From: an uncultured Bacteroidales bacterium
Lineage (GTDB): Bacteria; Bacteroidota; Bacteroidia; Bacteroidales; UBA932
NCBI GenBank assembly: GCA_944322815.1
Contig: CALUQB010000009.1
Location: 12,027-76,026 of the forward strand
DNA length: 64,000 nucleotides
Direction of reading: 5' to 3'
Shown: positions 12,601 to 39,251 of the stretch, piece after piece
How positions within the stretch are numbered: the first letter of the stretch is position 1
Layout: every line of letters starts with the position of its first letter
The notes under the pieces: generated by a model
The model's input: only the letters and a program-made list of their open reading frames with translations
Told to the model about the DNA's origin: nothing
Databases searched by the model: none
Translations under genes and position numbers: made by a program

Positions 12601-13702
12601 AATTCCTGATGCTGTGGTTCTGACCGTCGAACGTACCCTTGTATGACACGCCTTCGTATGTAGTGCCGTTGAATGTTCCGTTTCCGATAGGAGTCCATGA
12701 CGTGATATCCTTCATGTCGATATCGTTCATCAGCTTGACGTTCATCCTGTCGGCTCCGGAACCGGAGTTGACATTCCGGGCGAACATGAGCAGTTCTTCC
12801 GCAGTACTGATCTCGACGTTGTCATTGGCCGCCCTTTCGAAGAACACAGGCCTCAGGACCGTATGTCCGTTGAAATCGTCAGCCAGAATGATGACATAGC
12901 CTGAATTTTCCAGAGCGGTGAGAGTCACGGTCTTGTCGTCCCTGTCGATTTCCGCTTCAGCTCCATCCACTTCAGCTACTGCCACCATGGCACTGCCGGC
13001 ATTCGTACCGGTAGTTTCATACGTGATCTTCAGGGAAGTGGCCGTATAGGCTATCGTGGTATTTATTGTAGCGGAAAGCTCCAGATTCAGGGCATTCTGC
13101 ACCGGCACGGTGATGACGGAACCGTCTCCCTGGGTGATTTCGAGATTCCCCTCAGGATTCACCTCCACGCTTTTGAAGACGCAGCTTTCTCCGTCATTGG
13201 CCTCTATAGGATTTCCGGCAGGGTCATTGATCCTCTGTCCGTTTACCGTCCAGTAACCTTCGGCGTCCACGGATATTTTCGGTGTATAACCGCTCACAGG
13301 GACTTTCCCGCCTTCGTTTTCCAGAAAGGAAGTCTGTCCGTCGACAGTCACCGTCCAGTAATAAAGGTTGTTCTGAGAATCCAGTTCCACGCCCAGTACA
13401 GGAGCATTTATCATCTGGTCCATGGTGGCGATGACCACCGTCTTAGCTTCACCGTTGCTGTCGAGATATGATATCACATACTTTCCGTCCGAATCCTGCG
13501 ATACGGAAGTAATGACGTTTCCGGAGGTGATATGGCTCAAGGACGCGAGCTGTCCGTTCATGGCATCCACCCTGCCCTGCAGTCTTTCTATGCGGTCCTT
13601 GATCCCGTCTATCTGGCTCTGAAGCTCGGCTTCTACATTCGTACAGGCCAAGGCAAACATGAAGATAAGTGCCAGGAACATATATTTGATAATTTTATTC
13701 AT
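9602..13702 (-). CDS. Surface lipoprotein: PL29-N/DUF4988-like N-terminus, two beta-helix (GLUG-like) modules, C-terminal SGNH/DUF4886-like domain
   Basis: Lipobox ALAC; coiled coil; YWTVNG motif; two xTAxxLxxFAxxVNSG modules; ILFIGNSF...DGYH. Confidence 0.85.
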   Translation of the reverse strand: MNKIIKYMFLALIFMFALACTNVEAELQSQIDGIKDRIERLQGRVDAMNGQLASLSHITSGNVITSVSQDSDGKYVISYLDSNGEAKTVVIATMDQMINAPVLGVELDSQNNLYYWTVTVDGQTSFLENEGGKVPVSGYTPKISVDAEGYWTVNGQRINDPAGNPIEANDGESCVFKSVEVNPEGNLEITQGDGSVITVPVQNALNLELSATINTTIAYTATSLKITYETTGTNAGSAMVAVAEVDGAEAEIDRDDKTVTLTALENSGYVIILADDFNGHTVLRPVFFERAANDNVEISTAEELLMFARNVNSGSGADRMNVKLMNDIDMKDITSWTPIGNGTFNGTTYEGVSYKGTFDGQNHSIRNFRLVADLQGENVVYGLFGILEGATVKNLTIGASDKDDSEFTFTATGVTSAGVFAGAMISSTMENCVNYAPINVKGNLTDNKRTAVGGFAGYVYGAETPSNLRNLTNYGAINADPGNNTKNGGTSVMVGGVAGFSNTSSSINQMYGCVNYADMISACPRTCGILATMQANTTLELCKNYGDQTNSSAARAGQITAIMGNNCLLKDCENYGDAVMTAQSSGIGGLVCLPNSTTAVITGGGSYGNIVCDNAGYRGIIAGQFGNIGRVDNVKVGGSIGSYNGGDFQMEVLTSDNYMDYIGAKADANAEKISNIIFFAEDRPNGIYTAADLLEFAQAVNSGASIEKWQAEDGGVNMYANIDLASVNDWTPIGNAVCPAGASDAEITGNAWTGNFNGNGKTISNLRLVSDGTTAGENYGFFGVLAPGSTVQNLNFDASCSLEVTASASLASGVVAGYVWDATVRDVTSYASMTFRGHAGNNFMGMALIGQVYSSGQGVTVDSCHNYGKITAENPDNNDQSGAKAYHIAGVVSFAHAVADATVVNTISDCSNYGDIQAATGRSAGIAGACNRSTRLINCVNHGDQTNTFFKQGGGRLGNITCNTGTGVTLTGCMNYGNLTSTTGARVGGISSLTNTAIFENCANYGVILSDDSNRGLFWGYNSAAATWKNCTAGGKVGTYNGGNPVYDSYTEAEQEKYLGVIKDGVVTDLQGMTWLVGTTNPGAGTGDAELSILFIGNSFTKDAVEHLPGILAAAGLDKVQLTHMYYGGHLVSQYNAEWASSAGYTRYDCGPGASQWTSSNGYSIKDVAESRNWDIVTIQEHTGNSAAWLWNTEAQNNMQSLINKVKAAQTGSMPEFWYILSQAYYDMGKIGSASKPYIKWEDQEGMWNVIADFGKNVMENVSFDGIISTGAMLQNLRTSSLDNDLNLTRDGYHMDYGISRYGAACTVFETLFTPIYGVDMDGNTFRYSTGGTGSTPVTDANAPIAIQAARYAMEKPYEVTDMSGK

Positions 13703-13714
13703 AAAGCGATGGTT

Positions 13715-16192
13715 TTATAAATTAAGCGAAGGATCGAAATTGTCGGCATTCTTGTAGCATACCGCATTGTCATTCGTAGCTTCAGGAGCTGATGCAGGAT
13801 CATCCTTGTAGGTATCCCAGTCTCCTACCTTGCCGCCCCTTGCACATGAAGTGATGAGGGCTTTCGAACCGTTGTAGCCGCATGCCCATCCAGGTCCGTG
13901 CTGAGGCTCACCCTGATCGTTCACGGTAGTGTTCGCCAGGATGATACCCTTGTTCACACAGCCTGTGATGGTAGCCTGGTTGTGACCTACGAAACCTCCG
14001 GTCCGGCATCCGAGCTGCGAGAATACGTTTCCGCTGTTCGTACAGTACTCGATCCTTATGCCTTTCTGGTTTGTCACTGTACCTCCGACAAGTCCTCCCA
14101 TACGTTTCAGGTTAGCCTTGTCCTTTGCTCCTCCGTACTGGCCAACGGCATCGTCCTGGATGAGACCGTAGTTCGTACAGTTGGAAACCACAGTGACAGC
14201 CACTTCGGATGTTCCTCCGCCTATGGTGGCGACAATACCGCCTCCACGACCTGTAGGTGCACTTACTTCACCGTAGTTGTCGCAGTAGTCGATCTTGAGT
14301 TCCACGTCATTTACCGCAAGAGTGAAGCCCACGATTCCGGCCACCTGCATTCCGCGGCCTCCGTTCTCGGTATTGGTGATGGCCCCTGTCTTGACAGAAC
14401 CGTAGTTCTTCACCGGTTCGTCCTTGCTTCCCACAGTCATAGGAGCCTTCACAGTTCCGGCGATACCGCCAAGCATCATGAGTGCGGAACAGTCTCCCGG
14501 CACCGCAGCATTCTTGTCTGCGAGCACGACGTTCACGTTGTTTGTTATTCCAGTTATCACTGACGACTCGGCATAACCGGCCAGGGCGCCGACAGATACC
14601 ACATTCATGGTAGCTCCTGTCACGGTGATCCTGTCTCCCTCCTTGCCGAGAACAAGATTCTTGACCGTAGCTCCCTGCAATGCTCCGAAGAATCCGAACA
14701 GATCCGCCTTGGTGACATCGTATGTCCAGTTGATGCCGGTGATGGCATATCCCTGCCCGTTGAATACGCCCGTAAACGGATTCGTCAGGGTATATGCAGG
14801 CGAACCGGACGCTGTTCCGGAGCCTATAGGCGTCCATTCGGTCAGAGCAGATACGTCGATATCGTTCAGAAGCACGACTTCTCCGGCCTCGTTCTGCCAG
14901 CGTGTCGTACTTGATCCGGTATTCACAGCCTGTACGAAAGCCGTCAGGTCGGCTCCGGTGGAAATACCCGGAACTACAGGACCTTCAGGGACCACAGGAG
15001 ACTGGCGGACCTTGACTTCCACTGTCACGTCATAGAGATCATTGCGGAAGATAATGGTACCCACGCGGTCCGCACCCGAATCACTCTCGTAATAGTCAGC
15101 GACGAACGAGTGTACGGTAGTCACCATTTCAGCCTTTGTGGAAGGTGCTTCCCTGAGCCAGTCGGAGCAATCTTCCGAAATGCTCATCGTATAGTCTATG
15201 TTGTGCGATACTTCTATTTCGAACTCGGTCAGTTCCCCCTCAAGCTGGATTTCCGCTCCGGTTCCGTATTCGTCATCCCATACCGGTTTCTGGATCTCCG
15301 CTGTCCCGGCAGTGAAGAACAGAGGCTTGAGCACCACATTCTCTCCTGCCGAAACCATGATGACCGTATTTCCTTCTTCCGCACCGTCGGCAAGGGTCAC
15401 GTTCACGGTGCGGGCGTACTTGTCGATTTCCACAGTCACATTATAGGCCGTGAACCAGTCCACTATGGCTTCATCCGCCTGCGTACCGGTCACGGTATAC
15501 GCGATTTTCGTCTGCACTGCAGGATCCGGCACCGCTATGATGGACGGGGCATCGAATTCGATCCCGAGAGCTTCGAACATGCGGACACTGAATGATGAGC
15601 CTCCGGCCAATGAGAATATGACCATACCGGATTCCTCGTCATATTCCACACCCGTAAACAGTCTGTTCGATGCATCGTCAGCCAATACAGGTTCGCCGTC
15701 GGAGCCAAGTGCACGCTCGCCGTTCACTGTCCAGTATCCGTCAGCATCGATGCCGACTTCCGGTTCAGTACCGCCGACCGGCATTTTCTTCCCGGCATCG
15801 TCCAGAATCCAGTCCCATGTCTTCCCGTTGTCGGAAGTCAGACACCAATAAAGTCTGCCGTCCTCGTCGGTCTGCGTGCCTATGAGAGGAGATGTCACGA
15901 CGTCGCTGCCAAGTGCCAGAGTGACTGTCTTCACTTCGCCGCCGTCTTCCATATAGCTTATCACCTGATTTCCTTCTTCGTCTGTTCCGATATAGGAAAC
16001 AAAGGTGCTGTTGATCAGTTCAGTCAGGGATGACATCTGGTCTTCCAGGTCCGTCATCGTCTGTTCATAGCCGGAAAGTTCCGCATCCACTTTTCCTATC
16101 TCTTCCCTCAACAGCGAGTCATCGTACGAGCAGGAAAAAAGGAGGGACAGTCCGGAAACAAATGAGATTATATGTGATAATTTTTTCATCAT
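13715..16192 (-). CDS. Surface lipoprotein: PL29-N/DUF4988-like N-terminus, BACON-like spacer, one beta-helix module
   Basis: Start reassigned from 16306 to ATG 16192 (MMKKLSHII..., lipobox LFSC), which removes the overlap with the upstream gene; paralogous to both neighbours. Confidence 0.85.
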   Translation of the reverse strand: MMKKLSHIISFVSGLSLLFSCSYDDSLLREEIGKVDAELSGYEQTMTDLEDQMSSLTELINSTFVSYIGTDEEGNQVISYMEDGGEVKTVTLALGSDVVTSPLIGTQTDEDGRLYWCLTSDNGKTWDWILDDAGKKMPVGGTEPEVGIDADGYWTVNGERALGSDGEPVLADDASNRLFTGVEYDEESGMVIFSLAGGSSFSVRMFEALGIEFDAPSIIAVPDPAVQTKIAYTVTGTQADEAIVDWFTAYNVTVEIDKYARTVNVTLADGAEEGNTVIMVSAGENVVLKPLFFTAGTAEIQKPVWDDEYGTGAEIQLEGELTEFEIEVSHNIDYTMSISEDCSDWLREAPSTKAEMVTTVHSFVADYYESDSGADRVGTIIFRNDLYDVTVEVKVRQSPVVPEGPVVPGISTGADLTAFVQAVNTGSSTTRWQNEAGEVVLLNDIDVSALTEWTPIGSGTASGSPAYTLTNPFTGVFNGQGYAITGINWTYDVTKADLFGFFGALQGATVKNLVLGKEGDRITVTGATMNVVSVGALAGYAESSVITGITNNVNVVLADKNAAVPGDCSALMMLGGIAGTVKAPMTVGSKDEPVKNYGSVKTGAITNTENGGRGMQVAGIVGFTLAVNDVELKIDYCDNYGEVSAPTGRGGGIVATIGGGTSEVAVTVVSNCTNYGLIQDDAVGQYGGAKDKANLKRMGGLVGGTVTNQKGIRIEYCTNSGNVFSQLGCRTGGFVGHNQATITGCVNKGIILANTTVNDQGEPQHGPGWACGYNGSKALITSCARGGKVGDWDTYKDDPASAPEATNDNAVCYKNADNFDPSLNL

Positions 16193-27467: not shown

Positions 27468-27555
27468 GTGTCAGTAACAGGGCAACAATTATACAACATA
27501 AGAACAAATATCCGGTGCCGGACACGTAAGAAAACCGTGTTAAAAAAAAGTGAAC

Positions 27556-27591
27556 AAAAAAAACGGCCGGCTGGAAAACCAGTCGGCCGTT
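27556..27591 (-). terminator. Terminator of the ribosomal protein operon
   Basis: AACGGCCGGCTGG-AAAA-CCAGTCGGCCGTT hairpin with a long T-tract on the minus strand, 20 nt after the rplQ stop. Confidence 0.85.
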
Positions 27592-27611: not shown

Positions 27612-28139
27612 TTACTCTGCCTTCTTCTCTTCAGCAGATGCCTCGGCAGCCGGAGCTTCTGCTGCTGGTGCAGTTTCCACCTGAGCCTCCGCCTTAGGAG
27701 CCTCTGCAGCCTTCTTTGAACGGCTGCGGCGGGTAGAAGTTTTCTTGGTCTCCTTCTTAGGTGAGGATGCAAGAGCTGCCTCGTTGAAGTCCACGAACTC
27801 GATCAGAGCCATCTCTGCAGCATCACCATGACGGAATCCCACTTTCAGGATTCTGGTATATCCGCCCGGACGCGATGCGATCTTAGGAGAGATAGTACCG
27901 AAAAGTTCTTTCACAGCCTCCTTGTTCTTCAGATAGCTGAATACAATACGGCGGGAGTGTGTAGTATCCTCTTTTGACTTGGTCACGAGAGGTTCAACAT
28001 ACATCTTGAGAGCCTTGGCCTTGGCAAGAGTAGTCGTTATCCTCTTATGCTCGATAAGGGAAACCGCCATATTGGCAAGAAGGGCCTTGCGGTGCCCGCT
28101 CTTGCGGCTAAGGTGATTGATTGATTTATTATGCCTCAT
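27612..28139 (-). CDS. rplQ: 50S ribosomal protein L17 (Ala/Glu/Lys-rich tail)
   Basis: MRHNK...[10 protein letters not shown]. Confidence 0.98.
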
Positions 28140-28141
28140 GT

Positions 28142-29149
28142 TTATACAGTCTTTTTCTTGGGTTCAATGTTATATTTGGATACATCCATTCCAAATGAAA
28201 GCTTCATCTTTTCTACCAGGAGATCGATCTCGTTGAGAGACTTGCGTCCGAAATTCCTGAATTTCATCAGCTCGGATCTCGAATATGAAACCAGATCGGC
28301 GAATGTATCGATATCTGCCGCCTTCAGGCAATTGTAAGCTCTCACCGACAGTCCCATATCGGAAAGCTTGGTGAGGAGCAGGTGTCTCATTCTGAGAGAC
28401 TCTTCATCCAACTCCTTCGAATCGGACTCCACAGCACTTTCGAGAGAAAGTTTCTTCTCGTCGGTAAACAGCTTGAAGTGATAGATAAGGATGTTGGCAG
28501 CCTCCTGAAGAGCAAGCTTAGGAGTTATTGAGCCGTCAGTTATGATTTCAAGAGTCAACTTTTCGTAATCGGTTTTCTGTTCCACACGCCAGTTGTCCAC
28601 GATCCAGTTCACGTTCTTGATCGGAGTGTAGATGGCATCGACAGGGATGGTTCCGATAGGAGTATCCGAATCGATATTGTCATCAGCCGGAACGAAACCG
28701 CGTCCTTTGCCGATATTGAGAGAAATCTCCAGCTTTACGGACGGTTCGAGCGAACAGATGTGCAGTTCAGGATTCAACACCTTGAAAGAAGACAATCCTT
28801 TGGAAATATCCTCCGCGGTAAACTCCTGTTTGCCGCTGATAACGATGTTTGCCACCTCGGAGTCTACAGTCTCTACCATTCTCTTGAATCTCACCTGCTT
28901 GAGATTCAGAATAATATCCTGCATCCCCTCGATCACTCCCGGTATGGTAGCGAACTCCTGGTCCACTCCCGAAATCTTGACCGAATTGATAGCAAACCCT
29001 TCCAGAGAAGACAACAATATCCGGCGGAGAGCATTACCGATGGTCTGGCCGTACCCAGGCTCGAGAGGCCTGAATTCGAAGCGACCCACGGTATCGGTTC
29101 CTTCGAGCATTATTACCTTATCCGGTTTCTGAAATGCTAAGATTGCCAT
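28142..29149 (-). CDS. rpoA: RNA polymerase alpha subunit
   Basis: [29 protein letters not shown]. Confidence 0.98.
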
Positions 29150-29176
29150 ATTGATTTTCTTTATTGGTGTTAATTA

Positions 29177-29779
29177 TTATTTAGAGTACAACTCGACGAT
29201 CAGCTGCTCGTTGATGTTCTCAGGAATCTCTTCCCTTACAGGGACATTGAGATATTTGCCGGTCAGAGTCTTGGCATCGAACTCTATCCATGAATACTTA
29301 GGGGCTGAAGCCACGCTGTTCTGGATAACTTCGAGGCTCTTTGACCTTTCCCTTACAGCCACGACGTCACCAGGCTTAACCTGTGCGGAAGGGATGTTGC
29401 AGACGATTCCGTTCAGGGTGATGTGGCAGTGTGAAACGAGCTGTCTGGCAGCTGCCCTTGTAGGAGCTACACCCATACGGTAAACCAGATTGTCAAGACG
29501 TGACTCCAGAAGGATAAGGAGGTTCTCACCTTTCTGACCCTTCATACGGGATGCCTTCTCGTATGTGTTGCGGAACTGTCTCTCGAGCAGGCCGTATGTA
29601 TATTTCACTTTCTGTTTCTCCCTGAGCTGCGTACCGTACTCTGAAGTCTTCTTACGCTTTCTTGCCAGGCCGTGCTGTCCCGGAGGGTAATTCCTTTTCT
29701 CGAAATCCTTGTCTGTTCCGAAGATAGGTTCTCCGAATCTACGAGCAATCTTAGTAGTTGGTCCAATATATCTTGCCAT
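29177..29779 (-). CDS. rpsD: 30S ribosomal protein S4
   Basis: [28 protein letters not shown]. Confidence 0.98.
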
Positions 29780-29804
29780 AGTAATTTTCCTTTATCAATA
29801 AAAA

Positions 29805-30197
29805 TTAAACTTTACGACGGCCTTTTGGTCTACATCCGTTATGAGGCATAGGAGTCACATCGATGATTTCGGTAACTTCTATTCCGGCACCATGAATAGT
29901 TCTGATGGCTGACTCACGTCCGGCACCAGGACCCTTTACATAAGCTTTCACCTTGCGGAGACCGAGATCGTACGCAGTTTTCGCTGCATCGGCTGCAGCT
30001 ACCTGGGCAGCATACGGAGTGTTCTTCTTGGAACCGCGGAAACCGCTCTTTCCGGCTGATGACCAGCTGATGACCTGACCTACGCTGTTGGTAAGAGTAA
30101 CGATGACGTTGTTGAAGGTCGATGAAATATGAGCCTCGCCATAAGCGTCAACCTTGACAACTCTTTTCTTGTTTGTTGATGTTGTTTTCTTTGCCAT
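29805..30197 (-). CDS. rpsK: 30S ribosomal protein S11
   Basis: [12 protein letters not shown]. Confidence 0.98.
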
Positions 30198-30210
30198 AAT
30201 TCATCTCCCG

Positions 30211-30588
30211 TTATTTGGTTGCCTTCTTCTTGTTTGCAACTGTTTTCTTCTTACCCTTTCTTGTACGGGCATTGTTCTTGGTGCTCTGGCCACGCACAGG
30301 AAGTCCGTTACGGTGGCGGATACCCCTGTAACAGCCGATATCCATCAGACGTTTGATATTCATCTGGATAGTAGAACGAAGCTCACCTTCGATCTTGTAC
30401 TCGGTCGCAATGACGTTACGGATTCCTGCGATCTGCTCGTCATTCCACTCGCCTACCTTGGTATCGAAATCGATTCCGAGTCCTGACAGGATCTTCCTTG
30501 CTGAGCTGCGGCCAATCCCGAAGATATAGGTCAGACCTATTTCTCCTCTCTTGTTGTTTGGTAAATCAACTCCGGCTATTCTTGCCAT
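30211..30588 (-). CDS. rpsM: 30S ribosomal protein S13
   Basis: [27 protein letters not shown]. Confidence 0.98.
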
Positions 30589-30628
30589 AATTATCTTGAA
30601 TTTTACTTATTATACAACTTAATAAATA

Positions 30629-30745
30629 TTATCCCTGACGCATTTTGAATTTAGGATTTTTTTTGCAGATCACGTAAAGACGGCCTTTGCGCTTTACGAT
30701 CTTGCAGTCCTCGCTGCGTTTCTTTATGGATGTCTTGACTTTCAT
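30629..30745 (-). CDS. rpmJ: 50S ribosomal protein L36
   Basis: Hand translation: [38 protein letters not shown] (38 aa, below the ORF-track cutoff). Confidence 0.97.
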
Positions 30746-30757
30746 TTTCGTAATTTT

Positions 30758-30976
30758 TTATTTGTACCTGAATGAAATCCTTCCCTTAGTCAAATCGTAT
30801 GGTGACATTTCGACTCTGACCCTGTCTCCCGGCAGAATCTTGATGTAGTGCATTCTCATCTTTCCTGAGATATGAGCCAGAATCACATGGCCGTTTTCCA
30901 GCTCGACCTTAAACATTGCGTTCGGCAGTGTCTCAACGATGACACCTTCCTGTTCTATTGCTGACTGTTTCGGCAT
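30758..30976 (-). CDS. infA: Translation initiation factor IF-1
   Basis: [13 protein letters not shown]...HISGKMR. Confidence 0.98.
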
Positions 30977-30987
30977 TAAATATCACT

Positions 30988-31764
30988 TTAAAATTCAACA
31001 TCAGACTTTTCAATATAATCAAAGGTTGACAGAACTTCAGGAACGCCTTTTCTGACAACAACCGTAAGCTCGAAGTGCGCTGAATTCCTGTGGTCCGCCG
31101 TGTGTACTTCCCAACCATTTCTTGCAAGATACACATTTCGCGTCCCGGCATTTATCATCGGTTCGATACAAATCGTCATCCCGTCCACAAGCTTGGGACC
31201 GCTGCCCTTCCTGCCGTAATTCGGGACTCCCGGATTCTCGTGCATGTGCCTGCCGATACCATGACCTTCAAGTTCACGCACCACTGAGAAGCCGGCCGAT
31301 TCTGCATACGACTGCACCGCGTGTCCGATATCTCCGATCCTGTTTCCGTCCACTGCCATCTCTATTCCCTTGTACAACGATGCCTTGGTGACATCCAGGA
31401 GTCTGCGGGTCTCCTCATCCACTTCCCCTACGGGGAAAGTATAGGCTGAATCGCCGTTATAACCCTTGTACAGAGTCCCGCAGTCCACTGAGACTATATC
31501 CCCTTCTTTCAGCACATAGTCTGAAGGAAAACCGTGGACTACGGTATCATTTACCGAAATACAAAGGGCAGCTGGAAAGCCCTCGTAACCCAAGAAGCTG
31601 GGTATAGCTCCGTGATCACGGATGTAGGTCTCTGCCAGCCTATTCAACTCAAGAGTTGTCACACCAGGGGCGACAGCCTTACCGACCACAGCCAATGTCT
31701 TGGATACGAGAATCGCATTCTCGCGCATCAGCGCTATTTCTTCTTCTGTCTTGGGCCTTACCAT
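30988..31764 (-). CDS. map: Methionine aminopeptidase type I
   Basis: DIVSVDCG, GHGIG, ICIEPM, HFE. Confidence 0.97.
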   Translation of the reverse strand: MVRPKTEEEIALMRENAILVSKTLAVVGKAVAPGVTTLELNRLAETYIRDHGAIPSFLGYEGFPAALCISVNDTVVHGFPSDYVLKEGDIVSVDCGTLYKGYNGDSAYTFPVGEVDEETRRLLDVTKASLYKGIEMAVDGNRIGDIGHAVQSYAESAGFSVVRELEGHGIGRHMHENPGVPNYGRKGSGPKLVDGMTICIEPMINAGTRNVYLARNGWEVHTADHRNSAHFELTVVVRKGVPEVLSTFDYIEKSDVEF

Positions 31765-31784
31765 ATACCAATGAACTACTGAAA

Positions 31785-33122
31785 TTACATTCCTGAGCGT
31801 CCTTTCAGACGACCTGTCTTCATCAGACCGTCATAGTGACGCATAAGCAAATGACTCTCGATCTGCTGGAGAGTATCCAGAACCACACCCACAAGGATCA
31901 GCAGCGAAGTACCGCCGTAGAAGCTTGCAAACTGGTTGTTCACTCCCAGGAGCATTGCGAATGCAGGGAGTATGGCGATAAGCGCGAGGAAGATGGAACC
32001 AGGAAGAGTCACTCTGGACATGATGGAGTCAAGATACTCGACGGTCTTCTTTCCCGGCTTCACGCCAGGGATGAACCCTCCGTTCTGCTTCAACTGTTCG
32101 GCCATCATGGTAGGATTCACAGTGACAGCAGTATAGAAATATGTGAAAATCACAACGAGAAGTCCGAATATAAGGTTATACCAGAAACCGGTATAATTGC
32201 TCAAAGTGGCAGCGAGGCCTCTTGTGGCATCGAACTGTGAGAAAATCAGCGGGAAAAGCATAAGCGCCTGCGCGAAGATGATCGGCATGACACCGGCTGC
32301 GTTGATTTTCATAGGGATATACTGGCGTACCCCGCCGTACTGCTTGTTTCCGACGATCCTCTTTGCATACTGTACAGGCACTTTCCTGACACCCTGGACG
32401 AGGGCGATGGCAGCCACGAATACAAAGAACAGGATCACGAGTTCGACAATCAGCAGGAGGACACCGCCGGCAGTATTGTTTACTTTCTCTCCGATCTCGG
32501 CTGTAAGGGCATAAGGCAGACGGGCGATGATACCCACCATGATGATGAGGGAAATTCCGTTTCCGATACCTCTGTCCGTAATCCTTTCACCGAGCCACAT
32601 GACGAACATCGTACCGCCGATCAGGATGATCGTGGAGACGAAGTTGAACATGAAGTTGCTCCATCCGAGATTATGTACGGCCAGGAATGCGCTCTCAGGA
32701 ATCTGGTTGTGAAGGGCAGCCATATAGGCAGGACCCTGGATGCAGAGGATGAGGATGGTCAGATATCTGGTCATCTGGTTCATCTTCCTCCTTCCGCTCT
32801 CCCCTTCCATCTGGAGCTTCCTGAAATAAGGGACGAACACGCCAAGAAGCTGGATGACGATAGATGCCGAGATATAAGGCATCACACCCAGTGCAAAGAT
32901 TGAAGCATTACCGAAAGCACCGCCCGAGAACATGTTCAGCAGGCCTACGAGACCTTCCTGAGTATTGTCCTGAAGATTGGCCAGCTGGGCCGAGTCGATG
33001 CCGGGAAGCACGATGAACGAGCCCAGACGATAAACCAGCAGCAAAAGAATCGTATACACGATTCTCTTGCGCAGTTCTTCAATCTTGAAGATGTTTCTGA
33101 TAGTCTGGATAAACTTCTTCAT
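31785..33122 (-). CDS. secY: Preprotein translocase SecY
   Basis: SIFALGVMPYISASI, WLGERIT, GGTSLLI. Confidence 0.98.
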   Translation of the reverse strand: MKKFIQTIRNIFKIEELRKRIVYTILLLLVYRLGSFIVLPGIDSAQLANLQDNTQEGLVGLLNMFSGGAFGNASIFALGVMPYISASIVIQLLGVFVPYFRKLQMEGESGRRKMNQMTRYLTILILCIQGPAYMAALHNQIPESAFLAVHNLGWSNFMFNFVSTIILIGGTMFVMWLGERITDRGIGNGISLIIMVGIIARLPYALTAEIGEKVNNTAGGVLLLIVELVILFFVFVAAIALVQGVRKVPVQYAKRIVGNKQYGGVRQYIPMKINAAGVMPIIFAQALMLFPLIFSQFDATRGLAATLSNYTGFWYNLIFGLLVVIFTYFYTAVTVNPTMMAEQLKQNGGFIPGVKPGKKTVEYLDSIMSRVTLPGSIFLALIAILPAFAMLLGVNNQFASFYGGTSLLILVGVVLDTLQQIESHLLMRHYDGLMKTGRLKGRSGM

Positions 33123-33574
33123 TATTTTTCATTTGTTGTTGCAGTTCCACCCTGAGCTTCGATCTTGGCGATGGCGCTCTTTGAGAATGCGTCAGCGGAC
33201 ACTTCGAGTTTGGCAGTCAGTTCACCGTTTCCAAGAATCTTCACAAGTGCAGTCTTGGCTACGATGCCGTTTGCTTTCAGAAGCTCGACATCGATGGAGT
33301 TGACTCCGAGCTTGTCAGCTATCTTCTGCAGATCCGCTACATTTATTGCTACATATTCCACTCTGTTAGGATTTGTGAAACCGAACTTAGGAAGACGCCT
33401 CTGGATAGGCATCTGACCTCCTTCGAATCCTATCTTGCGGGAATATCCTGAACGGGCCTGAGCACCCTTGTGACCACGTGTGGATGTGCCACCGTGTCCT
33501 GAGCCCTCGCCACGGCCTATTCTCTTCTTTCTTCCTCTGGAACCTTCTGCAGGTTTTAATTCATGCAATTTCAT
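33122..33574 (-). CDS. rplO: 50S ribosomal protein L15
   Basis: MKLHELKPAEG, GFEGGQMP; start moved to 33574. Confidence 0.97.
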   Translation of the reverse strand: MKLHELKPAEGSRGRKKRIGRGEGSGHGGTSTRGHKGAQARSGYSRKIGFEGGQMPIQRRLPKFGFTNPNRVEYVAINVADLQKIADKLGVNSIDVELLKANGIVAKTALVKILGNGELTAKLEVSADAFSKSAIAKIEAQGGTATTNEK

Positions 33575-33591
33575 TTCTCGATCCTCCAAAT

Positions 33592-33771
33592 TTAAATTTC
33601 CTCAACTTTTACAAGGTGGAGAACCTTCTGAACCATTCCTTTGGTCACCGGGGTAAGCTCTACCTCGACAGTCTGATGCAACCTGTGGATTCCGAGGCAC
33701 TGAAGATTCGCGATCTGCCTCTTGGTCGCTCCGTTCTTGCTCTTAATCTGAGTTATCTTGATTTTTGCCAT
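33592..33771 (-). CDS. rpmD: 50S ribosomal protein L30
   Basis: Hand translation: MAKIKITQIKSKNGATKRQIANLQCLGIHRLHQTVEVELTPVTKGMVQKVLHLVKVEEI; canonical position between rpsE and rplO. Confidence 0.96.
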   Translation of the reverse strand: MAKIKITQIKSKNGATKRQIANLQCLGIHRLHQTVEVELTPVTKGMVQKVLHLVKVEEI

Positions 33772-33785
33772 GTCGTTCTTCCTCC

Positions 33786-34304
33786 TTAACCTTTAAATAC
33801 TCTGCTCATAGGTATACCGCGAAGTCCGGCAATGGTATAAGCATCCCTCATTTCAGCAAGGGCGGCAACAGTGGCCTTTACCAGATTGTGAGGATTTGAA
33901 GATCCCTTTGATTTGGCCAGCACGTTCTGGATACCTACAGACTCGAATACTGCACGCATCGCACCACCGGCCTTCACTCCTGTACCCGGAGCTGCAGGCT
34001 TCATGAATACTTTTGCTCCGCCGAACTTGGCTTCCTGCTCATGAGGAATAGTCTTGTTGAGGACAGGAACCTTCACGAGGTTCTTCTTGGCATCCTCGAT
34101 GCCTTTTGAAATCGCTGTAGTGACCTCATTCGCCTTTCCAAGACCATAACCTACAACGCCGTTCTCGTCACCTACTACAACGATGGCAGCAAAACTGAAG
34201 TGACGGCCACCCTTGGTAACTTTTGTCACCCTCTTGACTGCTACCAGCCTGTCTTTAAGCTCAAGATCAGTTGTCTTTACTCTTTTAACATTTGAATTTG
34301 CCAT
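33786..34304 (-). CDS. rpsE: 30S ribosomal protein S5
   Basis: [20 protein letters not shown]. Confidence 0.98.
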
Positions 34305-34308
34305 AGTC

Positions 34309-34671
34309 TTAGAATATTAGGCCACCTTCACGGGCAGCGTCAGCCAAACTTTTTACTCTACCATGATAAAGGTAACCTCCACGGTCGAAAGAGATGGTGG
34401 TGATACCCTTCGCAATGCTGCGCTCTGCGATAGCCTTGCCTACAAGAGCTGCAGCCTCTTTACCGGATTTGCCTTTGCATTCTGCTGCAAGTGCCTTGTC
34501 GTTGGATGAGGCAGACACGAGAGTCACGCCTTTTGTGTCATCGACTACCTGCACATAAATCTGCTTGTTGCTTCTGAACACAACCATTCTTGGTCTCTCA
34601 GCAGTACCATTGACAACTTTACGTATACGGTAATGAATTCTTCTTCTTCTTTCTATCTTAGTCAATGCCAT
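34309..34671 (-). CDS. rplR: 50S ribosomal protein L18
   Basis: [20 protein letters not shown]. Confidence 0.98.
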
Positions 34672-34685
34672 AACTCAATCTCCTA

Positions 34686-35246
34686 TTATTTAGCACCTGC
34701 TGACTTACCAGCCTTACGACGGATCTGCTCGCCGACAAATCTGATACCCTTGCCCTTGTATGGTTCAGGCTTACGCAGAGAACGTATCTTGGCGGCAACC
34801 TGTCCGACAAGCTGTTTGTCGATGCTCTTGAGCACCAGTATAGGGTTCGCACCCTTCTTGACCGGCTCAGCCTCTGCCTTTACTTCCGCAGGGAGCATGA
34901 AATGTACATCGTGTGAGAAACCGAGTGAAAATTCAAGGATCTGGCCTTTGACATCCACACGATAACCGACACCGATAAGTTCCTGTTTGATAGTGTATCC
35001 TTCTGAAACTCCGACTACCATGTTGTGAACCAGTGCACGGTAAAGACCGTGAAGGGAGCGGTGTCTTGGAAGATCGGTAGGACGAGTCAACTTAACTTCA
35101 TTTCCCTCTACGGTTACAGTGATGTCAGCGTCAACTTTCTGGCTGAGTTCCCCGAGAGGTCCTTTAACCTTGACAACGTTGCCAGGGAGCACCTCGACGG
35201 TGACTTTGGCAGGAAGGTGTACAGGCAATTTACCAATTCTTGACAT
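34686..35246 (-). CDS. rplF: 50S ribosomal protein L6
   Basis: MSRIGKLP, PEPYKGKGI. Confidence 0.98.
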   Translation of the reverse strand: MSRIGKLPVHLPAKVTVEVLPGNVVKVKGPLGELSQKVDADITVTVEGNEVKLTRPTDLPRHRSLHGLYRALVHNMVVGVSEGYTIKQELIGVGYRVDVKGQILEFSLGFSHDVHFMLPAEVKAEAEPVKKGANPILVLKSIDKQLVGQVAAKIRSLRKPEPYKGKGIRFVGEQIRRKAGKSAGAK

Positions 35247-35263
35247 TATTCGATTCTTTTAGA

Positions 35264-35659
35264 TTAATATACGTAACATAATACCTCACCACCGACATTC
35301 AGGTCTTTGGCTTCCTTGTCAGTGATGATACCCTTGGAAGTAGACAGTATGGCGATACCGAGACCGTTGAGTACTCTCGGCATTTCATCTACGCCTGTAT
35401 ATTTCCTGAGACCCGGCTTGGATATGCGCTCGATCTTCTTGATGGCTGCAACCTTGGTCTGAGGATGATACTTGAGGGCAATCTTGATAGTGCTTGCAGG
35501 CTGTCCTTCCACTACCTTGTAGCTGAGGATATAGCCTTTTTCACAAAGGATCTTGGTGATAGCCACTTTCATCTTTGAAGAAGGTATTTCCACGATCTTC
35601 TTTCCGGCCATGTACGCATTGCGGACCCTTGTAAGATAATCTGCTATTGGATCAGTCAT
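35264..35659 (-). CDS. rpsH: 30S ribosomal protein S8
   Basis: MTDPIADYLTRVRNA, SKPGLRKY; start moved to 35659. Confidence 0.97.
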   Translation of the reverse strand: MTDPIADYLTRVRNAYMAGKKIVEIPSSKMKVAITKILCEKGYILSYKVVEGQPASTIKIALKYHPQTKVAAIKKIERISKPGLRKYTGVDEMPRVLNGLGIAILSTSKGIITDKEAKDLNVGGEVLCYVY

Positions 35660-35739
35660 TTCTTTTTTTGATTTAAGAACCGGCACAAAGTACTGTGCCC
35701 GATATCCATTGTTAATATTTAATTGTATGATTTCCGATA

Positions 35740-36009
35740 TTACCAGCTTGCCTTCTTTACGCCCGGGATGAGCCCGTTGCTAGCCATCTCACGGAACTGG
35801 ATACGGCTGATGCCGAACAGACGCATATAGCCTTTTGGTCTTCCTGTGAGAGAGCAGCGGTTGTGCATTCTGCAAGGGCTGGAGTTCTTTGGGAGCTTGT
35901 CAAGTGCTGCCCAGTCACCGGCCTCTTTGAGAGCTTTCCTCTTTTCAGCGTATTTGGCAACTAATTTCGCGCGCTTCACTTCGCGGGCTTTCATTGATTC
36001 TTTTGCCAT
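35740..36009 (-). CDS. rpsN: 30S ribosomal protein S14 (long, non-Zn form)
   Basis: [20 protein letters not shown]. Confidence 0.98.
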
Positions 36010-36020
36010 ACCGTTCTCCT

Positions 36021-36626
36021 TTAGTTGTTATGTTTTTTGAAAGGCAGACCGAATTCACGCAGAAGAGCGTGTGCTTCTTCATCCGTCTTTGCCGTAGTCA
36101 CGAATGTGATCTCCATACCGAGAATCTTTGAAATCTTGTCGATGTCGATCTCAGGGAAGATGATCTGCTCCTTGATACCGAGAGTGTAGTTTCCTCTGCC
36201 GTCCATCTTTTCAGAGATGCCGTTGAAATCCCTGATACGCGGAAGCGATATGCGGATCAGTCTCTCGAGGAATTCATACATCTTGGTGGCACGGAGTGTC
36301 ACTTTCACTCCGATAGGGTTTCCCTTACGGAGCTTGAAGTTGGAGATATCCTTCTTGGAAAGAGTAGCGACAGCCTTCTGACCGGCGATGGCAGTCAGCT
36401 CCTGCTGAGCATTCTCCACGAGCTTCTTGTCGCCGGTAGCGTCACCGACACCCTGGTTGATAGTGATCTTCACGAGCTTCGGAACCTGCATCACGGTAGT
36501 GTACGAGAATTCCTTCATAAGCTTCGGCACTATCTCATCCTTGTATAATTTCTTCAGTGTCGGAACATATCCTGCAGGTACCGCAGCGACGTTCGCCACT
36601 TCTGTAGTCTTTTTAGTCTTTGCCAT
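36021..36626 (-). CDS. rplE: 50S ribosomal protein L5
   Basis: [23 protein letters not shown]. Confidence 0.98.
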
Positions 36627-36943
36627 TATTTGATCTCCTCTCCAGATTTTTTAGCATAGCGGATTTTCTTTCCATCGACGAACTTGTATCCTATTCTGGT
36701 AGGACCGCCCTTTGAAGGGTCCACGAGCTGAAGATTGGAAATATGGATTCCTGCCTCTTGTTTAACAATACCGCCTTGAGGATTCTTAGGATTCGGTTTG
36801 GTATGCTTGCTGACCATGTTGATACCTTCCACGATAACACGGTCCTTGGCACGAATCACCTCAAGCACCTTGCCGGTCTTACCCTTGTCATTACCGGCAT
36901 TGACATAGACTGTATCGCCTTTCTTGATATATACTTTCTTCAT
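36626..36943 (-). CDS. rplX: 50S ribosomal protein L24
   Basis: [25 protein letters not shown]. Confidence 0.98.
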
Positions 36944-36954
36944 AACGATCTCAA

Positions 36955-37320
36955 TTAAAGTACCTCAGGTGCCAGTGAAACGATTTTCATGAAATTCTCA
37001 CGGAGTTCCCTTGCGACAGGGCCGAAAATACGTGTACCGCGGACTTCTCCCTGGTTGTTGAGGAGAACGCATGCATTGTCGTCGAAACGGATATACGAAC
37101 CGTCAGGTCTGCGTATCTCTTTCTTTGTGCGGACTACTACAGCCTTGGATACTGAACCTTTCTTGGCATCCCCGCCAGGGATTGCACTCTTCACGGCAAC
37201 GACGATCTTGTCGCCTACCTTAGCATAACGGCGGCGCGTACCACCCAGTACACGGATGCAGAGAACTTCCTTTGCACCACTGTTGTCTGCCACCTGTAAA
37301 CGTGTTTCCTGCTGTATCAT
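36955..37320 (-). CDS. rplN: 50S ribosomal protein L14
   Basis: [22 protein letters not shown]. Confidence 0.98.
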
Positions 37321-37322
37321 TG

Positions 37323-37580
37323 TTATTTAACTTTTTCTACTATTTCTACTAATCTCCAGTTCTTTGTCTTGCTCAACGGACGAGTCTCCATGATACGCAC
37401 GGTATCTCCCTCGCTGCACTCGTTCTTCTCGTCATGAGCTACGAACTTGGTGGTCTTCTTTACGAACTTACCGTAAATAGGATGCTTTTCTTTTGTTGCA
37501 ACGGCAACTACGATAGACTTGTCCATCTTGTTGCTGACCACGATTCCTATCCTTTCCTTACGAAGATTTCTTTCCATCAC
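37323..37580 (-). CDS. rpsQ: 30S ribosomal protein S17
   Basis: [22 protein letters not shown]. Confidence 0.98.
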
Positions 37581-37589
37581 ACTGAAATT

Positions 37590-37784
37590 TTAGTTCTGTT
37601 TTTCCTTTTCTGCCAGGATAGTCATCATTCTTGCGATATCCTTCCTGGACTTGGCTATCTTAGACGTATCCTCTAAAGGAGAAATAGTGTGATTTATCTT
37701 CATGGTGTCAAGAGCCGCCTTCTCTGCCTCGATACGTTCACGCAGATCGCTGATTGACATTTCGCGTACTTCAGATGCTTTCAT
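37590..37784 (-). CDS. rpmC: 50S ribosomal protein L29
   Basis: MKASEVREMS...RKDIARMMT; start moved to 37784. Confidence 0.95.
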   Translation of the reverse strand: MKASEVREMSISDLRERIEAEKAALDTMKINHTISPLEDTSKIAKSRKDIARMMTILAEKEKQN

Positions 37785-37800
37785 TTTTTCTCCTTGATAA

Positions 37801-38220
37801 TTATTCAACATAGTCTCTACGTACCACAAACTTGGTGGTGACCGGAAGCTTCTGGGCACCAAGACGGAGAGCCTCCTTGGCGATCTCCATAGGAACTCCC
37901 TCAGCCTCTATAAGGATACGGCCCGGAGTTACAGGACAAACGAATCCCTCTGGATTACCCTTACCTTTACCCATACGCACTTCGGCAGGCTTCCTGGTAT
38001 ATGGCTTGTCAGGGAATATCCTGATCCAGATCTTACCCTCACGCTTCATATAACGCACGACGGCCTGACGCGCAGCCTCGATCTGGCGGCCTGTAAGCCA
38101 GCAATTTTCCAGTGTCTTGATGCCGAAAGAACCGAACACAAGCTGATTGCCTCTCTGGGCAAGGCCTTTCATACGACCTTTTTGCTGCCTTCTAAATTTT
38201 GTTTTCTTCGGTTGTAACAT
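37801..38220 (-). CDS. rplP: 50S ribosomal protein L16
   Basis: [17 protein letters not shown]. Confidence 0.98.
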
Positions 38221-38307
38221 TGTCTATTACTTTTAAAATTCACTTCAAATTCCTTAAATAATTGAGTATCAGCTGGTTGGGCGGACTTATCCTCAATTAA
38301 GGGACTG

Positions 38308-38337
38308 CAAAGATAGTAATTTTTTCTGAATTGCAAA
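38308..38337 (-). promoter_or_regulatory. Primary-sigma promoter driving rplP and downstream genes
   Basis: Minus strand TTTG (38337-38334), 18 nt, TATCTTTG (38315-38308). Confidence 0.8.
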
Positions 38338-38348
38338 TATTTTTTCAT

Positions 38349-38450
38349 AAAAATTCAGATATTTTCGACCGGAATTTCTGCACCTTAAATCAGGAAAAAT
38401 CATCAAGTTATGAATACTGTTCAAAAAAATTCAGGATCATTTTCGACCGG
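38349..38450. repeat. Imperfect direct repeat pair
   Basis: AAAAATTCAGATATTTTCGACCGG (38349-38372) and AAAAATTCAGGATCATTTTCGACCGG (38425-38450). Confidence 0.7.
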
Positions 38451-38506
38451 TGCGGAACTTCACCGGCAGAACGGCGGACAGCCGGGGCGTATAGTCAAAA
38501 TATTGC

Positions 38507-38514
38507 TATATTTG
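38507..38514 (+). promoter_or_regulatory. -7 promoter element for the DUF4294 gene
   Basis: TATATTTG 53 nt before the ATG; no clear -33 box. Confidence 0.5.
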
Positions 38515-38567
38515 CACCTTGCTACAAGCCGGAACGACAGGAAATTTCCGGATAAGATCATCCGAAC

Positions 38568-39251
38568 ATGCGCAAGAAGACCGGTTACATACTGGCATTG
38601 TCCGTCATGGTGACAGCCGTCGCCATGACAGGACTGTCATCACATGCACAGACCCCGGAAACGCCAGACGGAATGTACATGCATTTCATGGTAGTGGACC
38701 GGGATACGGTGTTCACGGACGAGCTGCCTCCTGCCCGCGTGTATTCGAGAATGCCGCGCCAGAAAGGCCGCGAATGGAGAAAATACTACCGGCTGGTGCA
38801 CAATTTCAGCAAGACCTATCCATACGCCCTCGCAGCCAGACATCTCGTTCACGAAGTGGACAGCACGATAGAAGCCGACCACCTGAAACGGGCCAGACGC
38901 GACAGATACATAAACAGCATGCAGAAACAGCTGTTCGAAGACTTCGAGTCATCAATGCGCGGTCTTACGGTATCTCAGGGGGCACTGTTGATGAAACTCA
39001 TTGACCGGGAGGTCGGAAAATCCTCTTACTTTATAATAAAGGACTACAAGAACGGAATGGCGGCAGGTTTCTGGCAGGGAATAGCGAAAATTTTCGGCAC
39101 GGACCTGAAAAAGCCTTACGATCCGGAAGGAGAGGACAGACCGATAGAAGAACTGGTGGAACTGTGGGAAGCAGGTCAGTTCGAAGGCCTGTACTACTCG
39201 CTTTTCTGGAAATATCCGCCGGAAATAGAAATACCGTCGAAATACAGATAG
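38568..39251 (+). CDS. DUF4294-family protein
   Basis: Signal peptide; RLVHNFSKTYPYA, LTVSQGALLMKLIDRE, GFWQGIAKIFG.DLK..YDP. Confidence 0.85.
   Translation: MRKKTGYILALSVMVTAVAMTGLSSHAQTPETPDGMYMHFMVVDRDTVFTDELPPARVYSRMPRQKGREWRKYYRLVHNFSKTYPYALAARHLVHEVDSTIEADHLKRARRDRYINSMQKQLFEDFESSMRGLTVSQGALLMKLIDREVGKSSYFIIKDYKNGMAAGFWQGIAKIFGTDLKKPYDPEGEDRPIEELVELWEAGQFEGLYYSLFWKYPPEIEIPSKYR

What the first reader, a model, noticed from the sequence alone, without database searches (positions are those of the whole stretch)
27612..38340. S10 ribosomal operon is split: the cluster starts at rplP with its own promoter
Seen: upstream of rplP there is no rpsC; instead an 87-nt gap, a consensus promoter (TTTG-18 nt-TATCTTTG) and then the divergent DUF4294 gene. 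rpsJ, rplC, rplD, rplW, rplB, rpsS, rplV and rpsC are absent from the window. Known: rpsC-rplP adjacency holds in E. coli, B. subtilis and Bacteroides. Inference: a lineage-specific break in one of the most conserved bacterial gene orders, needing new stoichiometric control; possibly a clade marker. The well-formed promoter argues against a mis-assembly.
Basis: partly seen in the sequence, partly recalled or inferred. Interest (0 to 1): 0.65.

Follow-up and report, generated by a model that had tools for sequence, protein, structure and literature searches.

The report
Ribosomal gene row split, clade-wide
In this uncultured gut bacterium (Candidatus Cryptobacteroides) the usually unbroken row of ribosomal-protein genes is cut into three separately promoted pieces; the cut is real, but it is an old trait inherited by about three quarters of the genera of its family, and is one more case of a known kind of rearrangement.

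Summary
rplP (37801-38220, minus strand) is the first gene of a 22-gene rplP-to-rplQ unit. Upstream lie an 87-nt leader, the window's only exact TTTG-N18-TATCTTTG promoter, and a divergent DUF4294 gene.

rpsC is single-copy and sits inside another contig. There it ends the block rplC-rplD-rplW-rplB-rpsS-rplV-rpsC, which has its own promoter and a strong terminator. The cluster is therefore in three pieces.

It is not a mis-assembly. About 60 of 70 independent Cryptobacteroides-like loci, including a complete HiFi chromosome, show the same rplP|DUF4294 junction. Four other metagenome assemblies reproduce the rpsC contig.

It is not specific to this species. Both cuts occur in 29 of 37 sampled genera of the family (28 checked directly). 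These genera form one clade with 100% support. The 8 genera that keep the cluster intact branch at the base. Across 136 other Bacteroidales families, 144 of 145 genomes keep rpsC next to rplP.

Two genera with only pfkA between rpsC and rplP look like the small-insert stage of the published "invasion-separation" route.

The conserved leader hairpin has no proven function.

The parts
38334..38337 (-). -33 element TTTG of the rplP promoter
   Evidence: Only exact TTTG-N17-21-TAnnTTTG match in the window. The position is conserved in 61 Cryptobacteroides-like loci.
38308..38315 (-). -7 element TATCTTTG (TAnnTTTG) of the rplP promoter
   Evidence: Equivalent boxes lie 76-197 nt upstream of rplP in all 28 split genera examined, 27 of them matching the strict pattern.
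38221..38307 (-). 87-nt 5' leader of the rplP unit, holding a hairpin at about 38250-38303 next to the inferred transcript start
   Evidence: Alignment A1 of 60 loci has 78% mean column identity. 92% of cells are paired but only 6 cells show compensatory change. No Rfam family matches.
37801..38220 (-). rplP (L16), first gene of the unit
   Evidence: TIGR01164, 186 bits. Single copy in the genome.
37590..37790 (-). rpmC (L29); start inferred
   Evidence: TIGR00012.
37323..37580 (-). rpsQ (S17)
   Evidence: NF004123.
36955..37320 (-). rplN (L14)
   Evidence: TIGR01067.
36626..36943 (-). rplX (L24)
   Evidence: TIGR01079.
33122..36626 (-). rplE, rpsN, rpsH, rplF, rplR, rpsE, rpmD, rplO in canonical spc order
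   Evidence: NCBIfam equivalogs for each gene.
30629..33122 (-). secY, map, infA, rpmJ
27612..30588 (-). rpsM, rpsK, rpsD, rpoA, rplQ (alpha part)
27508..27582 (-). Two terminator-like hairpins just after rplQ; probable 3' end of the unit
38568..39251 (+). Divergent DUF4294 gene that forms the new upstream junction
   Evidence: PF14127. About 60 of 70 relatives' loci show rplP on the opposite strand upstream of DUF4294, directly adjacent in most and 1.5-5 kb away in eight; the rest are mostly cut by a contig end.
39194..40888 (-). lpxH-like phosphoesterase and uppP, which travel with DUF4294
   Evidence: Conserved next to DUF4294 in the 70 loci and in G079.

Best explanation
The str-S10-spc-alpha ribosomal supercluster of this Candidatus Cryptobacteroides genome is cut at two points, rpsJ|rplC and rpsC|rplP. 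That gives three transcription units: (1) ...fusA-rpsJ; (2) rplC-rplD-rplW-rplB-rpsS-rplV-rpsC; (3) rplP through rplQ. Each downstream unit has gained its own Bacteroidetes-type promoter (TTTG / TAnnTTTG) followed by a hairpin that begins a few nucleotides after the -7 box, close to where the transcript should start. Unit 2 ends in a strong intrinsic terminator. After rpsJ, a promoter, a tRNA-Met gene and a terminator follow. The cuts are old. They arose once, on the branch leading to a large subclade of the family (GTDB UBA932 from my own knowledge; the record titles give only the genus name), and were inherited by all its genera. The most likely route is 'invasion-separation'. In that route a few foreign genes insert between neighbouring genes, which removes the pressure to stay together, and later rearrangements move the pieces apart. 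The genera with only pfkA between rpsC and rplP appear to preserve the early, small-insert stage. The gene order, copy number, phyletic pattern and promoter sequences are shown. Separate transcription, the direction and order of the events, and any regulatory role of the leader are inferred.
For: Own genome: rplP, rpsC and rpsJ each give one hit. rpsC lies inside the 53-kb contig C19 and rplP inside the 80-kb contig C9. On C19 the divergent cdaA gene precedes rplC, which has its own TATATTTG promoter. A 15-bp terminator hairpin with a T run, then tRNA-Pro, then a convergent tkt gene follow rpsC. rpsJ and fusA lie on C9, 27.5 kb upstream of rplP on the same strand.

Assembly independence: about 60 of 70 loci from other metagenome-assembled genomes (MAGs), including the complete chromosome OZ007033.1, have rplP upstream of and divergent from DUF4294-lpxH-uppP. 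Six other metagenome assemblies carry the identical rpsC protein in the context cdaA|rplC..rpsC. Four of them also have the same tkt-mdh neighbours, and none has rplP downstream.

Distribution: in the family, 23 genomes of 8 genera keep rpsC-rplP adjacent and 89 genomes of 29 genera do not. Fourteen of those 89 have the two genes on one contig, 2 kb to 506 kb apart. Every genus with the rpsC|rplP cut also has rpsJ away from rpsC. In the rest of the order, rpsC-rplP is adjacent in 144 of 145 genomes of 136 families, and rpsJ lies about 3.5 kb upstream of rpsC in 141 of 147.

Phylogeny: in a tree of 11 concatenated ribosomal proteins, all split genera form one clade (UFBoot 100) and the unsplit genera form a basal grade next to the outgroups.

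Intermediates: G037 and G060 have only pfkA, or pfkA plus a peptidase, between rpsC and rplP (2.0-2.4 kb). Same-genus G079 and G111 have a 10.8-kb insert.

Promoters: a TTTG-N17-21-TAnnTTTG motif lies 76-197 nt upstream of rplP in 27 of the 28 split genera examined. The 28th (g28) has the -7 box with a variant -33. None of the unsplit genera or outgroups has one.

Literature: the invasion-separation model is described in PMC8046335.
Against: Promoters, terminators and separate transcription therefore rest on sequence motifs and their conservation. Much of the family tally (75 genomes) rests on 'different contigs' in fragmented MAGs, which alone could be contig breaks. Only 14 genomes show both genes far apart on one contig, and 28 genera were checked directly at the rplP upstream region. 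The tree uses proteins from the cluster itself and one genome per genus. The upstream neighbours of rplP differ between subclades: pfkA in g35/g37, DUF4294 in the crown clade, and unidentified ones elsewhere. So the order of events, and even a single origin for the rpsC|rplP cut, is a parsimony inference.
Confidence: 0.9

Rival explanations
1. Assembly or binning artefact: a chimeric join at 38220-38570, or rpsC and rplP wrongly placed on different contigs of the MAG.
For: The genome is a 64-contig MAG.
Against: Both break ends lie deep inside long contigs. The same rplP|DUF4294 junction appears in about 60 of 70 independent assemblies, including a closed HiFi chromosome. The same cdaA|rplC..rpsC|tkt context appears in four other metagenome assemblies. 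Promoter and leader are conserved in 60 loci.
Confidence: 0.01
2. A recent break specific to this species or genus.
For: Within the genus the distal sides differ. G079, G111 and G059 have a thioredoxin-like gene after rpsC, with rplP 10.8 kb away in G079 and G111. G000 has tRNA-Pro and tkt after rpsC, and rpsC is on another contig. So some rearrangement is recent.
Against: The cut itself is shared by 29 of 37 genera, which form one clade. Only the later dispersal of the pieces is recent.
Confidence: 0.02
3. The rpsC|rplP cut arose more than once inside the family: a pfkA insertion in g35/g37 and an independent DUF4294-block insertion in the crown clade. Shared fragility of the site, not shared ancestry, would then explain the pattern.
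For: The upstream neighbours of rplP differ. pfkA is found in g35/g37, and DUF4294 only in the crown-clade genera g1, g5, g6, g9, g16, g17, g23 and g28. The leader hairpin of Cryptobacteroides is not recovered in other genera.
Against: All split genera are monophyletic with 100% support, and all also share the second cut, rpsJ|rplC. One origin followed by neighbour turnover needs fewer events.
Confidence: 0.12
4. The window's rplP-rplQ unit is an extra, partial copy, and an intact cluster exists elsewhere in the genome.
For: The genome is 94% complete, so something could be missing.
Against: rplP, rpsC and rpsJ each occur exactly once in this genome. Closed genomes of the family (G006, G046, G087, G101) also have one copy of each, far apart.
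Confidence: 0.01

Closest known systems
Canonical str-S10-spc-alpha ribosomal supercluster (E. coli, B. subtilis, Bacteroides thetaiotaomicron)
   Same: Gene content and internal order of every piece are canonical: rplC-rplD-rplW-rplB-rpsS-rplV-rpsC, and rplP-rpmC-rpsQ-rplN-...-rpoA-rplQ. All genes are single-copy.
   Different: rpsJ is not next to rplC and rpsC is not next to rplP. 27.5 kb of unrelated genes lies between rpsJ and rplP, and the rplC-rpsC block is elsewhere. Other Bacteroidales keep rpsC-rplP adjacent in 144 of 145 genomes and rpsJ close to rpsC in 141 of 147.
[quoted passage not shown]
   Same: A small number of genes first invades a junction, and the pieces then drift apart. 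Here the stages seen are a 2-kb pfkA insert (g35/g37), a 10.8-kb insert (G079, G111), and separations of tens to hundreds of kb.
   Different: In the passages of that paper that I read, the breaks fall between operons (str|S10, rpoBC|str). Here both cuts fall inside what is the single S10 operon in E. coli. The lineage is an uncultured Bacteroidales family not covered by that study.
E. coli autoregulatory ribosomal-protein leaders (L4 on the S10 leader, S8 on spc mRNA; survey in PMC3616713)
   Same: The new rplP unit carries a conserved 5' leader with a hairpin. That is where such a control element would sit. The unit encodes S8.
   Different: No Rfam family matches. There is little covariation. 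Similarity to 16S rRNA is weak: 22 of 500 shuffles score as high, and the best match is not the S8 site. The hairpin is not conserved across the split clade. Similar hairpins just after the -7 box also follow the rplC and tRNA-Met promoters, so it may be a generic 5' stabiliser.
Bacteroidetes primary-sigma promoter consensus, -33 TTTG / -7 TAnnTTTG (my own knowledge of the Bacteroides fragilis promoter literature)
   Same: There is an exact match with an 18-nt spacer, and it is conserved in position in relatives.
   Different: The transcription start was not mapped here.

Membership tests
Contiguous S10-spc-alpha cluster | rpsC immediately upstream of rplP on the same strand | tested here: not met
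   rpsC is on contig C19 and rplP on C9. DUF4294 lies upstream of rplP.
Contiguous S10-spc-alpha cluster | rpsJ immediately upstream of rplC | tested here: not met
   rpsJ is at C9:77736-78020. The divergent cdaA gene lies upstream of rplC on C19.
Contiguous S10-spc-alpha cluster | Canonical internal order from rplP to rplQ, single copy | tested here: met
   NCBIfam equivalogs in order. One hit per gene in the genome.
Invasion-separation type cluster break (PMC8046335) | Relatives that preserve a small insert at the broken junction | tested here: met
   G037 has pfkA only, with rpsC-rplP 2.0 kb apart. G060 has pfkA plus a C39-like peptidase, 2.4 kb apart.
Invasion-separation type cluster break (PMC8046335) | Later wide separation of the pieces in descendants | tested here: met
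   Separations of 10.8 kb to 506 kb on single contigs.
Invasion-separation type cluster break (PMC8046335) | The junction broken is an inter-operon junction | tested here: not met
   Both cuts lie inside the S10 operon as defined in E. coli. Whether that stretch was one operon in the Bacteroidales ancestor is unknown.
Bacteroidetes sigma-A type promoter | -33 TTTG and -7 TAnnTTTG with a 17-21 nt spacer | tested here: met
   Positions 38308-38337 on the minus strand, the only match in the window. Conserved in relatives.
Bacteroidetes sigma-A type promoter | Transcription starts a few nucleotides downstream | not testable with these tools
Autoregulatory ribosomal-protein leader RNA | Conserved secondary structure supported by covariation | tested here: inconclusive
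   92% of cells are paired, but only 4 pairs (6 cells) change on both sides, and the sequence is mostly invariant. RNAalifold gives almost no consensus energy.
Autoregulatory ribosomal-protein leader RNA | Mimicry of the regulator's rRNA binding site | tested here: inconclusive
   AUAAGUC / CAACC / UGAUACU recall the S8 site in helix 21 of 16S rRNA. The alignment score is reached by 22 of 500 shuffles, and the best match is elsewhere in the 16S. The base at the position equivalent to G597 varies between subclades.
Autoregulatory ribosomal-protein leader RNA | Membership of a described RNA family | tested here: not met
   No Rfam match at gathering score or below E = 2.
Autoregulatory ribosomal-protein leader RNA | Binding of a ribosomal protein and repression of the operon | not testable with these tools
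   This needs biochemistry or genetics.

The most novel reading that the evidence does not exclude
After the cluster broke, the rplP-led unit of the Cryptobacteroides group evolved a new autoregulatory leader. The nearly invariant GCCCAACCAGCUGAUACUCAAU hairpin near the inferred 5' end would be bound by a protein encoded in the unit. S8 is the obvious candidate, because the AUAAGUC...UGAUACU strands resemble its site in helix 21 of 16S rRNA. Such a leader would replace whatever control acted through the intact cluster.
Probability: 0.1. Interest if true: 0.6.

Novelty: new member of a known kind. Interest (0 to 1): 0.3.

Why it matters
The rpsJ-to-rplQ order is among the most stable gene orders in bacteria, so a whole clade living with it cut in three is a useful natural experiment. 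It shows that co-transcription of rpsC with rplP, and of rpsJ with rplC, is dispensable if each piece gains a strong promoter. It gives a simple presence/absence marker that separates a large subclade of an uncultured gut and rumen family from its basal genera and from all other Bacteroidales sampled. It also preserves apparent intermediate stages of the invasion-separation route. In addition it supplies three young 5' leaders in which to look for new ribosomal-protein feedback elements. It does not reveal a new kind of system. I found no paper describing it. Other agents of this scan have reached the same conclusion from other genomes.

Tried and rejected
I used independent assemblies instead.

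2. Known RNA family for the leader: Rfam gave nothing at gathering score or at E up to 10.

3. RNAalifold on 60 leaders gave a near-zero consensus. My hand-drawn hairpin is 92% paired but has too little covariation to prove structure.

4. S8/helix-21 mimicry: there is an attractive three-segment resemblance to the 16S of a family member. It failed a shuffle test: p is about 0.04, and the best alignment is to another 16S region. The key G is also not conserved in sister subclades. I kept it only as a low-odds lead.

5. One leader family across the whole split clade: the covariance model R1 hits other genera only through the -7 box and the start-codon region, not through the hairpin. Rejected.

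6. 16S rRNA in the own genome: none present. I used G046 instead.

7. Partial duplicate copy of the cluster: rejected by the single hits.

8. The single order-level exception for rpsC-rplP (G127, 700 contigs) and the six for rpsJ-rpsC lie on different contigs of mostly fragmented assemblies. I could not resolve them, and they are most likely contig breaks.


Full report
WHAT IS IN THE WINDOW

On the minus strand, 27612-38220 holds 22 genes in canonical order. They are rplP, rpmC, rpsQ, rplN, rplX, rplE, rpsN, rpsH, rplF, rplR, rpsE, rpmD, rplO, secY, map, infA, rpmJ, rpsM, rpsK, rpsD, rpoA and rplQ. Each matches its NCBIfam equivalog. Two terminator-like hairpins follow rplQ.

Upstream of rplP there is no rpsC. 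A 347-nt intergenic region is followed by a divergent DUF4294 gene (38568-39251, plus strand; PF14127). Beyond that lie an lpxH-like gene and uppP on the minus strand.

TTTG, 18 nt and TATCTTTG occupy 38337-38308 on the minus strand, 87 nt before the ATG. It is the only exact TTTG-N17-21-TAnnTTTG match in the 64 kb.

WHERE THE MISSING GENES ARE

The window is C9:12027-76026 of a 64-contig, 2.68-Mb genome. rpsC occurs once, inside the 53-kb contig C19. There it closes the block rplC-rplD-rplW-rplB-rpsS-rplV-rpsC.

That block is not preceded by rpsJ. It is preceded by a divergent cdaA gene and has its own TATATTTG promoter plus a hairpin just downstream of it. Twenty-three nucleotides after the rpsC stop comes a 15-bp hairpin with a T run. 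A promoter, tRNA-Pro(TGG), a second terminator and a convergent transketolase gene follow.

rpsJ also occurs once. It lies with fusA upstream of it at C9:77736-78020 on the minus strand. That is the window's own contig and strand, 27.5 kb upstream of rplP and 1.7 kb beyond the window's end. It is followed by a promoter, tRNA-Met(CAT) and a terminator.

The supercluster is therefore in three pieces, not two.

NOT AN ARTEFACT

- Seventy loci encoding relatives of the DUF4294 protein were found in other MAGs. Their record titles name Candidatus Cryptobacteroides and uncultured Bacteroidales from chicken, ruminant, horse and other guts.
- One of these is the closed HiFi chromosome OZ007033.1.
- About 60 of the 70 show rplP on the opposite strand upstream of DUF4294-lpxH-uppP. 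It is directly adjacent in most and 1.5-5 kb away in eight. The rest are mostly cut by a contig end. None has rpsC there.
- The identical rpsC protein is found in six other metagenome assemblies, always as cdaA|rplC..rpsC. Four have the same tkt-mdh neighbours and two have a GH38 gene instead. None has rplP downstream.

HOW WIDE THE SPLIT IS

Family survey. I searched 121 genomes from 37 genera of the same family for rplP, rpsC and rpsJ and compared coordinates.

- rpsC-rplP is adjacent in 23 genomes of 8 genera.
- It is not adjacent in 89 genomes of 29 genera.
- Fourteen of those 89 have both genes on one contig, 2 kb to 506 kb apart.
- Every genus that lacks rpsC-rplP adjacency also has rpsJ away from rpsC.
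- Seven of the eight adjacency genera have rpsJ about 3.5-5.3 kb upstream of rpsC. In the eighth (g2, a fragmented assembly) rpsJ is on another contig.
- In several split genomes rpsJ and rplP remain on one contig and strand, 27-105 kb apart.

Order survey. I then searched 151 genomes covering 137 families.

- Outside this family, rpsC-rplP is adjacent in 144 of 145 genomes. The exception is a 700-contig assembly.
- rpsJ lies 3.5-3.8 kb from rpsC in 141 of 147 genomes. The six exceptions are on different contigs, mostly in fragmented assemblies.

Both cuts are thus confined to part of one family.

ONE ORIGIN

I fetched the rplP region of one genome per genus plus five outgroup families. I concatenated 11 ribosomal proteins (1443 columns) and built an IQ-TREE tree.

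Rooted on the outgroups, the seven unsplit genera in the tree form a basal grade. All 28 split genera form one clade with 100% ultrafast bootstrap support.

In all 28 split genera the sequence upstream of rplP lacks rpsC. In 27 of them it contains a TTTG-N17-21-TAnnTTTG promoter 76-197 nt before the ATG. The 28th (g28) has the TATATTTG -7 box with a variant -33. In all unsplit genera and outgroups the rpsC 3' end is there and no promoter is found.

HOW IT PROBABLY HAPPENED

- Genera g35 and g37 sit in the earliest-branching split lineage. They have rpsC and rplP only 2.0-2.4 kb apart, with pfkA on the opposite strand between them (plus a C39-like peptidase gene in G060).
- Two species of the window's own genus (G079, G111) have a 10.8-kb insert between the two genes. 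It reads thioredoxin-like, uvrC, pnuC, a hypothetical gene, a glycogen-synthase-like gene, ftsX, uppP, lpxH, DUF4294.
- The DUF4294 neighbour is restricted to the crown of the split clade.
- The side distal to rpsC varies even within the genus.

This graded series matches the invasion-separation model proposed for breaks of the same supercluster in Gammaproteobacteria and Bacilli (PMC8046335). The difference is that the cuts here fall inside the E. coli-defined S10 operon rather than between operons. tRNA genes sit at both distal break ends in this genome. The order of events is an inference.

THE LEADER

An earlier first-reader note (e1-5199345) flagged a hairpin at 38252-38302.

In 60 non-identical Cryptobacteroides-like loci the 87-nt leader is strongly conserved. 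Mean column identity is 78%, and GCCCAACCAGCUGAUACUCAAU is almost invariant. It can form a hairpin that begins close to the inferred transcript start.

My structure is 92% paired, but only 6 cells show compensatory change. RNAalifold gives essentially no consensus, and Rfam has no match.

The strands AUAAGUC / CAACC / UGAUACU recall the S8 site in helix 21 of the family's 16S rRNA. Three results argue against reading much into this.

- The resemblance is not significant: 22 of 500 shuffles score as high, and the best alignment is elsewhere in the 16S.
- The base equivalent to G597 varies among subclades.
- A covariance model of the leader finds other genera only through the promoter box and the start region.

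Hairpins just after the -7 box also follow the rplC and tRNA-Met promoters. A generic 5' stabiliser is therefore at least as likely as a feedback element.

LITERATURE AND EARLIER NOTES

Three full-text searches found no description of this split in Cryptobacteroides, UBA932 or Bacteroidetes. Earlier agents of this scan, working from other genomes, reported the same family-wide split. I treat those reports as agreeing leads, and I re-derived every claim here from the sequence.

VERDICT

The feature is real, promoter-equipped and a good clade marker. It is a new lineage-level instance of a known kind of rearrangement, of moderate to low interest.

Noticed in passing
L084 (G000 C9:75000-80068) 2415-2621, just beyond the window end: Between the promoter that follows rpsJ and tRNA-Met(CAT) lie two tandem direct repeats of about 119 nt spacing (88-nt cores, 81% identical). 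No Rfam family matches them.
   Followed up: partly
L114 (G094, genus g30) about 3270-4280: In an unsplit genus, rpsN and rpsH are about 1.3 kb apart (start to start) instead of about 0.35 kb. Roughly 0.9 kb of extra sequence therefore sits inside the spc part.
   Followed up: no
window 39194-39251: The 3' ends of the convergent DUF4294 gene (plus strand) and the lpxH-like gene (minus strand) overlap by 58 nt. The same overlap geometry recurs in most of the 70 related loci.
   Followed up: no
L002 (C19) 13659-13740 and L085 (G079) 11020-11096: rplC has its own TATATTTG promoter, a hairpin just downstream (CCGCAA...UUGCGG) and a conserved AAUAAACAAUUAAUUAA stretch before the ATG. This is a second young leader created by the split.
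   Followed up: partly
G060 (genus g35), contigs C13 and C38: There are two full-length rplP hits on different contigs of one MAG. This is either a duplicate or contamination.
   Followed up: no
L087 (G111, same genus) 598-694: This same-genus species has a much more A/U-rich rplP leader (23% G+C) that has lost the GCCCAACCAGCUGAUAC core. The hairpin is therefore not fixed even within the genus.
   Followed up: partly
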